DNA from: a phage
Reading direction: 5' to 3' (one strand)
Length of the DNA stretch: 47,147 nt
Sequence record: PZ787336.1
Notes under the pieces: generated by a model
The model's input: only the letters and a program-made list of their open reading frames with translations
Told to the model about the DNA's origin: nothing
Databases searched by the model: none
Position numbers and translations under genes: made by a program
Part shown: one piece after another, positions 1 through 112 of the stretch
How positions within the stretch are numbered: the stretch's first letter is position 1
Layout: each line of letters opens with the position of its first letter

Positions 1-112
1 CCAGTACGTTAGCGGCAAGGCGTACATAGCCAAAGGACGAGTGATAAAACGTTATCGTGTCGAATAACGCCCAGTTAGGGCGCTTTGCTTTGTAATCGCG
101 TAATGATGGCAT
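1..112 (-). CDS. minor tail protein (gpL-like), N-terminal part; gene continues across the window end into 46789..47147
   Basis: ATG at 112..110 overlaps the stop of the upstream gene (TAATG); open frame to base 1 ([37 protein letters not shown]); in frame with the ORF ending the window. Confidence 0.5.

What the first reader, a model, noticed from the sequence alone, without database searches (positions are those of the whole stretch)
1..112. One tail gene is split in frame across the two ends of the window, so the sequence looks like a rotated complete genome
The minus-strand ORF starting at ATG 112..110 (overlapping the stop of the upstream tail gene as TAATG) has no stop down to base 1 (37 codons). 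The minus-strand ORF ending at 46789 has no start inside the window and is open to base 47147. If base 47147 is joined to base 1 the two pieces are in the same frame (junction codon GAT), giving a single protein of about 155 aa. It sits exactly where a gpL-like minor tail protein is expected in the order tape measure, M-like, L-like, NlpC/P60 K-like, J-like, tailspike. This implies a circular or circularly permuted complete phage genome linearised inside a gene.
Basis: partly seen in the sequence, partly recalled or inferred. Interest (0 to 1): 0.6.

Follow-up and report, generated by a model that had tools for sequence, protein, structure and literature searches.

The report
Circular phage assembly cut inside gene
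The window is a complete 47-kb tailed-phage genome whose circular assembly was opened inside a small tail-tip gene, which is an ordinary bookkeeping artefact that matters only because gene callers will miss that gene.

Summary
On the minus strand, ATG 112..110 is open to base 1, and the ORF ending at 46789 is open to base 47147. Joining 47147 to 1 gives one in-frame 156-aa protein (junction codon GAT).

That protein is 100% identical to a protein of phage vB_Eco_ZCEC08. It is 97% identical, 1-156 to 1-156, to Shigella phage Sf11 gp16, the "baseplate hub 1 protein" (three copies per virion, PDB 9OCC).

In six related genomes the two window ends map to adjacent bases, so nothing is missing or duplicated at the seam. 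Conversely, the record ends of several relatives fall inside this window, next to the terminase gene.

A relative (STGO-35-1) was shown with PhageTerm to package by the headful mechanism, with terminal redundancy and partial circular permutation. It is a known artefact of low interest.

"gpL-like" holds by position and role only: the protein does not match Pfam Phage_tail_L and has no cysteines.

Of more interest is something seen in passing. At 5461-5907 (+) lies an unannotated, strongly covarying RNA with a tmRNA-like 10-codon tag frame (ANDDVVLMAA*) but no recognisable tRNA-like domain. It is shared by many unrelated enterobacterial phages and prophages.

The parts
1..112 (-). 5' part of the baseplate hub 1 protein gene (BH1P, 'L-like' minor tail protein): ATG 112..110, codons 1-37, plus the first base of codon 38
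   Evidence: sequence, translation; full-length homologues once joined
46789..47147 (-). 3' part of the same gene: last two bases of codon 38 (47147, 47146), codons 39-156, stop TGA 46791..46789
   Evidence: joined protein = PDB 9occ_F (Sf11 gp16) over 1-156, E 1.4e-100
112..585 (-). distal tail protein ('M-like'), 157 aa; its stop overlaps the BH1P start as TAATG
   Evidence: matches residues 1-155 of Sf11 gp17 distal tail protein (9occ_C, E 1.6e-99); PHROG 384
585..2960 (-). tape measure protein, 791 aa
   Evidence: Pfam TMP_3 E 2.4e-55; PHROG 1538 full length
46347..46796 (-). NlpC/P60-domain minor tail protein ('K-like'), 149 aa; its start overlaps the BH1P stop (ATGTCTGATGA)
   Evidence: Pfam PF00877, 35 bits against cut-off 23; same 8-nt overlap annotated in HC6
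43928..46417 (-). baseplate hub 2 protein ('J-like'), 829 aa
   Evidence: 9occ_E Sf11 gp14 full length, 1765 bits; PHROG 469
41621..43888 (-). tailspike, 755 aa
   Evidence: N-terminal 1-135 = Sf11 gp13 (9occ_G); 155-628 = K5 lyase 2x3h, E 1.7e-276; C-terminal Peptidase_S74
27355..28818 (-). terminase large subunit. The conventional start points of related records lie just upstream of it (window ~28930 for HC6/ZCEC08, 30032 for Bas77-80)
   Evidence: Pfam Terminase_3 + Terminase_3C; record ends of relatives map here

Best explanation
The window is the complete genome (47,147 bp) of a virulent siphophage of the HC6 / vB_Eco_ZCEC08 / ST1 group, next to Segzyvirus. Phages of this group package DNA by the headful mechanism, so virion DNAs are terminally redundant and circularly permuted. 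Reads then assemble into a circle with no natural end. Whoever or whatever produced this sequence opened the circle at an arbitrary base, which falls in codon 38 of the 156-codon gene for baseplate hub 1 protein. This protein forms a trimer in the tail tip between the distal tail protein ring and the large hub protein, the role gpL plays in lambda. Nothing biological happens at the window ends; the gene is intact on the real molecule. Shown here: the frame continuity, the full-length homology, the base-exact seam and the completeness. Inferred from a relative: the headful/permuted nature of the virion DNA.
For: The frame and junction codon were read directly. The joined protein matches PHROG 396 full length. 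It is 100% identical to a ZCEC08 protein, and 242 phage records carry it at >=80% coverage. It is 152/156 identical, without gaps, to Sf11 gp16, which is 156 residues, detected in virions by mass spectrometry, modelled 1-154 and present in 3 copies (PMC12724387). The joined junction DNA is one BLAST piece in 151 records, 98.6% identical to HC6. Window bases 1 and 47147 map to adjacent bases in HC6, ZCEC08, 6947, HC8A and STGO-35-1, and consistently in ST1UNAM. Reciprocally, the records of HC6, ZCEC08, Bas77-80, D10 and others break inside the window at ~28.9-30.0 kb, while DS8, PJN025, swi2, LPSTLL and Segz_1 run through that point. The length lies within the group's range of 44.6-48.4 kb. PhageTerm on STGO-35-1 reported preferred termini, terminal redundancy and partial circular permutation, that is, headful packaging (PMC8954984). 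The ZCEC08 authors state that they rotated their contig to start at the terminase gene (PMC12001532), so start points in this group are a convention.
Against: No reads or assembly graph are available, so circular closure is inferred from comparison, not observed. The packaging mode was measured on a relative about 90% identical over 57-71% of the window, not on this phage. An exact 40-mer spanning the junction was not found in IMG/VR, so no independent contig with this exact sequence bridges the seam; the bridging genomes are 98.6% identical or less.
Confidence: 0.95

Rival explanations
1. The genome is complete and the window ends are arbitrary, but the virion DNA has fixed ends (cohesive ends or short direct terminal repeats near the terminase gene). 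The assembler closed the circle through those ends, so the molecule is not circularly permuted.
For: Relatives carry an HNH endonuclease gene directly upstream of the large terminase gene (HC6_0001; HNH-family ORF at window 29544..30068). From general knowledge, HNH proteins accompany HK97-type cos packaging. Many records in the group start near the terminase.
Against: PhageTerm on STGO-35-1 reported headful packaging with partial permutation (PMC8954984). Starting at the terminase is a stated convention, not a measured end (PMC12001532). The window holds no retained terminal repeat.
Confidence: 0.1
2. The window is a fragment whose ends are true contig ends (an incomplete genome or an excised prophage), and the two open ORF pieces belong to different genes that merely happen to be in frame.
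For: A priori, two open-ended frames agree one time in three.
Against: The joined product is 100% identical over 156 aa to a single ZCEC08 protein and matches a solved 156-residue chain 1-156. The two ends are adjacent bases in six relatives. The whole gene set of the group is present, with no host flank.
Confidence: 0.01
3. The cut is not arbitrary: a preferred physical end or nick of the virion DNA lies inside the BH1P gene and caused the assembler to break there.
For: None beyond the fact that the break is where it is.
Against: The seam is 18-19 kb from the terminase/pac region, where headful series start. None of the 151 related records that hold the junction breaks at this position. There is no repeat or unusual sequence at the seam.
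Confidence: 0.02

Closest known systems
Shigella phage Sf11 gp16, baseplate hub 1 protein (PDB 9OCC chain F; PMC12724387)
   Same: Same length (156 aa), 152/156 identical, gap-free alignment 1-156. Same neighbours: distal tail protein upstream, hub protein 2 and tailspike downstream.
   Different: Four substitutions (A33V, L48S, A104T, T130A, written window residue then Sf11 residue). In this record the gene is split by the linearisation point.
Lambda gpL (minor tail protein L, Pfam PF05100)
   Same: Same position in the tail gene order (tape measure, M, L, K, J), and a small protein that sits as a trimer between the distal tail ring and the large tip/hub protein. The lambda side of this comparison rests on general knowledge.
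   Different: No Pfam Phage_tail_L hit at E<=0.1; only DUF1833 below threshold. 156 aa without any cysteine, so it cannot bind the [4Fe-4S] cluster described for gpL-type proteins (general knowledge). No gpI-like gene lies between the K-like and J-like genes.
Escherichia phages HC6 (OL362274), 6947, HC8A and vB_Eco_ZCEC08 (PP213477)
   Same: Closest genomes: 95-98% identity over 54-84% of each window half, colinear, 47.7-47.9 kb.
   Different: Those records are opened at or just upstream of the terminase large subunit gene and on the other strand. They carry a tRNA-Ile that is absent here and a different, longer tailspike (2580 nt, annotated endo-N-acetylneuraminidase in ZCEC08).
pac-type headful packaging as in P22, SPP1 and 9NA, measured for Salmonella phage STGO-35-1
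   Same: Gives terminally redundant, partly circularly permuted DNA that assembles as a circle (PMC8954984). The large terminase belongs to Pfam Terminase_3.
   Different: Not measured for this phage. No small terminase gene or pac site was identified here.

Membership tests
Baseplate hub 1 protein of Sf11/chi-type siphophages (PHROG 396) | Full-length sequence homology to the family profile and to the solved member | tested here: met
   PHROG 396 E 8.7e-41, query 1-155 against profile 3-163/164; 9occ_F E 1.4e-100, 1-156 to 1-156
Baseplate hub 1 protein of Sf11/chi-type siphophages (PHROG 396) | Gene lies between the distal tail protein gene and the hub protein 2 gene, downstream of the tape measure gene | tested here: met
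   Order 585..2960 TMP, 112..585 DTP, split gene, 46347..46796 NlpC/P60, 43928..46417 BH2P
Baseplate hub 1 protein of Sf11/chi-type siphophages (PHROG 396) | Present as a trimer in the virion tail tip | not testable with these tools
   Shown for Sf11 by cryo-EM and mass spectrometry (PMC12724387); inferred here from 97% identity
Lambda gpL family (Pfam PF05100 Phage_tail_L) | Match to the Phage_tail_L profile | tested here: not met
   Pfam scan at E<=0.1 returns only DUF1833, 16.4 bits, below the cut-off of 21
Lambda gpL family (Pfam PF05100 Phage_tail_L) | C-terminal cysteines that coordinate an iron-sulfur cluster (general knowledge) | tested here: not met
   The 156-aa joined sequence contains no cysteine (read directly)
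Lambda gpL family (Pfam PF05100 Phage_tail_L) | Shared fold with gpL | not tested
   No structure prediction or fold search was run. The Sf11 paper compares gp16 only with phage chi
Complete, circularly closed assembly of a headful-packaging phage | The two ends of the linear record abut exactly, with no gap and no overlap, when compared with colinear relatives | tested here: met
   Adjacent coordinates in HC6, ZCEC08, 6947, HC8A and STGO-35-1, consistent in ST1UNAM; one BLAST piece across the joined junction in 151 records
Complete, circularly closed assembly of a headful-packaging phage | Related records are opened at different points of the same circle | tested here: met
   In related records the BH1P gene lies at 2.7 kb (LPSTLL), about 15-16 kb (seszw records listed) or 28-29 kb (HC6, ZCEC08, ECO95). 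Ends of HC6, ZCEC08 and Bas77-80 map to window 28.9-30.0 kb
Complete, circularly closed assembly of a headful-packaging phage | Headful-type terminase and read-end signature (terminal redundancy, permutation) | tested here: inconclusive
   TerL is Pfam Terminase_3/3C. The signature was measured only for the relative STGO-35-1 (PMC8954984). No reads are available for this window

The most novel reading that the evidence does not exclude
For the split gene itself, the only non-trivial reading left is that the break marks a preferred physical end or nick of the virion DNA inside the BH1P gene, rather than an arbitrary cut. Nothing supports this. Separately, and outside the finding, the window carries at 5461-5907 an unannotated tmRNA-like RNA without a tRNA-like domain (see Noticed in passing). 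That RNA is where any novelty in this window lies.
Probability: 0.02. Interest if true: 0.3.

Novelty: already known. Interest (0 to 1): 0.1.

Why it matters
There are practical consequences only. A gene caller run on this linear record will drop or truncate an essential tail-tip gene, and may report two fragments. Comparisons of gene content will then wrongly score the phage as lacking baseplate hub 1 protein. The seam also gives positive evidence that the sequence is a complete genome. The record should be rotated, for example to start upstream of the terminase genes, and reverse-complemented to match its relatives.

Tried and rejected
- **Exact junction search:** a 40-mer spanning the junction found no match in IMG/VR, so no contig with the identical sequence bridges the seam. 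The evidence rests on relatives 98.6% identical or less.
- **Whole-genome alignment in a script:** this failed because the two full-length loci (L002, L003) were initially not exported to the script machine. I replaced it with BLAST of the window halves.
- **gpL membership by Pfam:** rejected.
- **NlpC/P60 protein against solved structures:** the sequence search gave only chance hits.
- **BASEL phages Bas77-80:** a literature search found no relevant paper in the library. 'Segzyvirus' appears only in passing in two papers.
- **tRNA-like domain in the side-lead RNA:**
  - ARAGORN found no tmRNA in the window or in five fetched copies.
  - Its single 'permuted tmRNA' call in Moogle builds the tRNA-like domain from distant tRNA genes and is not credible.
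  - A search for a 5'/3' acceptor stem next to a T-loop and NCCA found 0 of 124 copies.
  - The 'CCACCA' at 5898-5903, which I first took for a CCA end, is one strand of the helix 5782-5790/5899-5907.
  - A PK1-like pairing CUUUG/CAAAG upstream of the tag did not hold its register in EC1-UPM.
- **Tool quirk:** the feature table of the reverse-complemented Moogle locus lists its tRNAs on the '-' strand, whereas ARAGORN places them on '+'. I followed ARAGORN.

Full report
**1. The observation**

Reading both ends and translating the joined ends confirms every detail.
- Plus-strand 110-112 is 'cat', a minus-strand ATG. Its A (base 112) is shared with the TAA stop (114..112) of the upstream minus-strand ORF 112..585, giving TAATG.
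- Thirty-seven sense codons run from 112 to base 2. Base 1 supplies the G of codon 38, and bases 47147 and 47146 supply AT (GAT, Asp).
- The frame then stays open to TGA at 46791..46789.
- The product has 156 residues: [37 protein letters not shown]|D|EMVLGG...FPGLRNV.
- The two window ends share no direct repeat of 5 bases or more. The window has no long internal direct repeat.

**2. It is one real gene**

- The joined protein matches PHROG 396 ('minor tail protein') over its whole length (E 8.7e-41).
- tblastn finds it at >=80% coverage in 242 phage records. The best match is 100% identical over 1-156, in Escherichia phage vB_Eco_ZCEC08.
- A search of solved structures returns chain F of PDB 9OCC, 'gp16', 156 residues, aligned 1-156 to 1-156 with four substitutions (E 1.4e-100).
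- 9OCC is the cryo-EM tail of Shigella siphophage Sf11. There gp16 is the 'baseplate hub 1 protein', found in virions by mass spectrometry, modelled for residues 1-154 and present in three copies (PMC12724387).

**3. The neighbours**

| Window (minus strand) | Product | Evidence |
|---|---|---|
| 585..2960 | tape measure protein | Pfam TMP_3, PHROG 1538 |
| 112..585 | distal tail protein, 157 aa | residues 1-155 of Sf11 gp17 |
| 1..112 + 46789..47147 | baseplate hub 1 protein (the split gene) | |
| 46347..46796 | NlpC/P60-domain protein | PF00877, 35 bits against cut-off 23 |
| 43928..46417 | hub protein 2 | Sf11 gp14, 1765 bits |
| 41621..43888 | tailspike | |

In lambda terms these are H, M, L, K, J and the fibre. 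'gpL-like' is therefore a fair description of position and role. Family membership fails where I could test it. There is no Pfam Phage_tail_L hit, only a sub-threshold DUF1833 hit, and the protein has no cysteine. gpL-type proteins are known to hold an iron-sulfur cluster on cysteines (general knowledge).

**4. The genome is a closed circle opened arbitrarily**

- A 1334-nt query made by joining the last ~730 bases to the first ~600 is a single BLAST piece with 100% coverage in 151 phage records. It is 98.6% identical to HC6.
- BLAST of the two window halves gives the decisive detail. Window base 1 and window base 47147 map to adjacent positions in five relatives:

| Relative | Position of window base 1 | Position of window base 47147 |
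|---|---|---|
| HC6 | 28329 | 28330 |
| ZCEC08 | 28324 | 28325 |
| 6947 | 28306 | 28307 |
| HC8A | 28330 | 28331 |
| STGO-35-1 | 30132 | 30133 |

  ST1UNAM is consistent with this as well. Nothing is missing or duplicated at the seam.
- The reverse also holds. The records of HC6, 6947, HC8A and ZCEC08 end at window ~28930, and those of Bas77-80 start at window 30032, just upstream of the large terminase gene (27355..28818). DS8, PJN025, swi2, LPSTLL, Segz_1 and SeSz-2 run straight through that region.
- Each record of the group is thus a different rotation of one circular map.
- The ZCEC08 authors say explicitly that they rearranged their contig to start at the terminase gene (PMC12001532).
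- At 47,147 bp the window lies within the 44.6-48.4 kb range of the group.

**5. Why the map is circular**

- The large terminase is of the Pfam Terminase_3/Terminase_3C type.
- For the relative STGO-35-1 (about 90% identical over 57-71% of the window), PhageTerm found preferred termini, terminal redundancy and partial circular permutation. The authors read this as pac-type headful packaging (PMC8954984).
- This step is inferred for the present phage, not shown. A cos or short-terminal-repeat genome collapsed into a circle by the assembler remains possible (about 10%). That would not change the verdict on the finding.

**6. Taxonomy and verdict**

- The nearest genomes (HC6, 6947, HC8A, ZCEC08, ST1UNAM) are unclassified Caudoviricetes.
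- The slightly more distant LPSTLL is classified as Segzyvirus.
- The finding is correct and fully explained. It is a linearisation artefact of a kind seen routinely with headful-packaging phages. Its only consequence is for annotation.

**7. Seen in passing: a tmRNA-like RNA (outside the finding, partly followed up)**

*How it came up.* While checking why ARAGORN finds no tRNA here, although HC6 and ZCEC08 carry a tRNA-Ile, I looked at the ~550-nt non-coding stretch at 5440-5960.

*The tag-like frame.*
- A permissive Rfam scan gave sub-threshold hits to tmRNA models only: tmRNA_permuted 27.3 bits (cut-off 47) and beta_tmRNA 18.1 bits.
- Both hits are centred on UAAAU-GCA AAC GAU GAU GUU GUU CUG AUG GCG GCG UAA (5554-5586), which encodes ANDDVVLMAA*. 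The E. coli tmRNA tag is ANDENYALAA.

*Distribution.*
- blastn finds parts of this stretch in 855 phage records. The listed hits to the ~170-nt core are 72-99% identical.
- They come from unrelated groups: HK620 (P22-like), N4-like EC1-UPM and FSL SP-058, Kuttervirus, Felixounavirus/Mooglevirus, P7 and Klebsiella siphophages. In the 40 listed records the matched stretch is unannotated or overlaps only a 'hypothetical protein'.
- 137 of 5426 complete E. coli genomes carry a copy. All copies are chromosomal and none is annotated.

*Conservation of the frame.*
- All 124 pattern-matched copies in the fetched loci keep a frame of exactly 10 codons. Examples are ANDDLMLMAA, ANDEQFLAVA, ANDNTFLAVA, ANDSEIRVAA and ANDTEFKAAA.
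- Copies found by BLAST show synonymous changes in the first codons (GCT AAT in Cba120).

*Covariation.* On 72 distinct cores the proposed helices covary strongly, while shifted-partner controls give 4-71% paired.

| Helix | Window coordinates | Cells paired | Pair types seen |
|---|---|---|---|
| Hairpin enclosing the stop codon, outer stem | 5572-5575 / 5598-5601 | 95% | AU 36 / GC 31 |
| Pseudoknot a, stem 1 | 5602-5606 / 5617-5621 | 98.9% | CG 35 / UA 37; AU 21 / GC 48; AU 57 / GC 14 |
| Pseudoknot a, stem 2 | 5611-5614 / 5631-5634 | 100% | GC 53 / AU 19; AU 61 / GC 11 |
| Pseudoknot b, stem A | 5637-5641 / 5645-5649 | 97% | CG 54 / GC 13 / UA 5 |
| Pseudoknot b, stem B | 5642-5645 / 5661-5664 | 88.5% | mostly GC and CG |

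The loop of pseudoknot b, UGAUUAAUAA, is conserved in all pattern-selected copies (the pattern required it) and in four of the five BLAST-found copies aligned (P7 differs).

*Downstream modules.* The core is followed by variable modules. Each is closed by a helix that covaries by eye (not scored): in the window AAGAGCA 5676-5682 / UGCUCUU 5772-5778, elsewhere AAGCUGC/GCAGCUU and AAGGCAA/UUGCCUU. Some modules contain canonical T-arms (window 5685-5703).

*Transcription and context.*
- The unit has its own sigma-70-type promoter (TTGACA 5461-5466, 17 nt, TAGATT 5484-5489; 10 of 12 matches). The predicted start is a few bases before AGUUUUCG.
- It ends at a hairpin with a T-run at 6009-6034.
- In Moogle a TTGACA-17-TATAGT promoter sits in the same place.
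- In HK620 the element lies between the late promoter/qut site and the late terminator. In P7 it lies in the C1-controlled tRNA operon. In Moogle it lies between tRNA-Ile and tRNA-Arg.
- Every tRNA within 2 kb in all loci is on the same strand as the element.

*No tRNA-like domain.*
- ARAGORN is negative, apart from one non-credible permuted call that nevertheless recognises the resume consensus and the tag ANDNVFLAVA**.
- None of 124 copies has an acceptor stem next to a T-loop and NCCA.

*Prior knowledge.*
- The 2014 exhaustive tmRNA survey screened 543 RefSeq bacterial viruses and found ssrA only in eight mycobacteriophages. It named Bacillus phage G and DS6A from outside that set (PMC4131195).
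- Rfam 15 has no family for this RNA.
- Two full-text searches found no description.

*My reading (inference, about 50% confidence).* This is a phage-borne relative of the coding and pseudoknot half of tmRNA, released from a tRNA or tRNA-like operon. It either works with a separately supplied acceptor (host tmRNA/SmpB or a tRNA-like module) to tag stalled-ribosome products with an altered degron (LMAA or LAVA instead of ALAA), or acts as a decoy for the trans-translation machinery. I could not tell these apart.

**8. Other things seen**

- The tailspike is a mosaic: an Sf11-type N-terminal anchor, a K5 heparosan lyase body, and an endosialidase-type C-terminal chaperone domain.
- The distal tail protein is 157 aa, against 457 aa in Sf11.
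- The tRNA-Ile of HC6 and ZCEC08 is cleanly absent.

Noticed in passing
window 5461-5907 (+); core 5497-5666; tag-like frame 5554-5586; terminator hairpin 6009-6034: An unannotated structured RNA with a tmRNA-like coding part. It has the resume context UAAAU-GCA and a 10-codon frame, ANDDVVLMAA*. The stop codon sits in a hairpin and is followed by two pseudoknots with strong compensatory covariation (two stems 99-100% paired on 72 distinct copies). It has its own sigma-70 promoter. No recognisable tRNA-like domain was found (ARAGORN negative; 0 of 124 copies with acceptor stem + T-loop + NCCA). Parts of this stretch are found in 855 phage records; the core is shared by unrelated groups (HK620, N4-like, Kuttervirus, Felixounavirus, P7, Klebsiella phages), by >=120 IMG/VR contigs and by 137 of 5426 complete E. 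coli genomes, with no RNA annotation in any listed record, and flanking tRNAs are always co-oriented with it. It is not in Rfam 15, not in the 2014 tmRNA survey of phages, and not found in the paper library. This deserves a study of its own.
   Followed up: partly
window 5676-5778 and 5782-5907 (+); loci L010, L011, L020, L121 and others: Downstream of the tag-bearing core (and upstream of it in prophages) lie variable modules. Each is closed by a long helix that covaries by eye (CACAACAGGUAAGAGCA / UGCUCUUUCCGUUGUG; AAGAGCA/UGCUCUU becomes AAGCUGC/GCAGCUU or AAGGCAA/UUGCCUU). Some contain canonical T-arms (GGUUCGAAUCC). In many prophage copies one such module ends ...UGCUCUUUCCA directly before the GUUUUCG that starts the core. 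They may be tRNA-like processing signals or a separate acceptor piece. The strand 5782-5790 can pair either with 5666-5674 or with 5899-5907, so the two helices are mutually exclusive.
   Followed up: partly
window ~5996-6008 (+), compared with L002 (HC6) 22604-22680: The tRNA-Ile (anticodon AAT) carried by HC6 and ZCEC08 is cleanly absent. About 80 nt are missing between a conserved hairpin (5970-5995) and the terminator hairpin (6009-6023). ARAGORN and Rfam find no tRNA anywhere in the window.
   Followed up: yes
window 41621-43888 (-): The tailspike is a three-part mosaic. Residues 1-135 match the Sf11 gp13 virion-anchor domain. Residues 155-628 match K5 lyase KflA (PDB 2x3h, E 1.7e-276). 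Residues 628-688 are a Peptidase_S74 intramolecular chaperone domain. The closest relatives carry a different, longer spike, annotated as endo-N-acetylneuraminidase in ZCEC08. This suggests a host with a K5 (heparosan) capsule.
   Followed up: partly
window 112-585 (-): The distal tail protein is only 157 aa, as in HC6, and matches residues 1-155 of the 457-aa Sf11 gp17. It keeps the helix that docks the tailspike in Sf11 (residues ~129-152) but lacks the large C-terminal appendage of unknown function.
   Followed up: no
window 24001-47147: About 90 Stx1a/Stx2a-converting phage records, plus Vectrevirus and Kayfunavirus records, share DNA with the second half of the window. I did not locate the shared segment. 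The C-terminal part of the tailspike or the Ea22/EaE-like early genes are candidates.
   Followed up: no
locus L007 (Moogle, reverse-complemented): The feature table of the reverse-complemented locus gives the tRNA genes as '-' strand, but ARAGORN finds them on '+' at the same coordinates. The strand column of flipped loci should be treated with care.
   Followed up: yes
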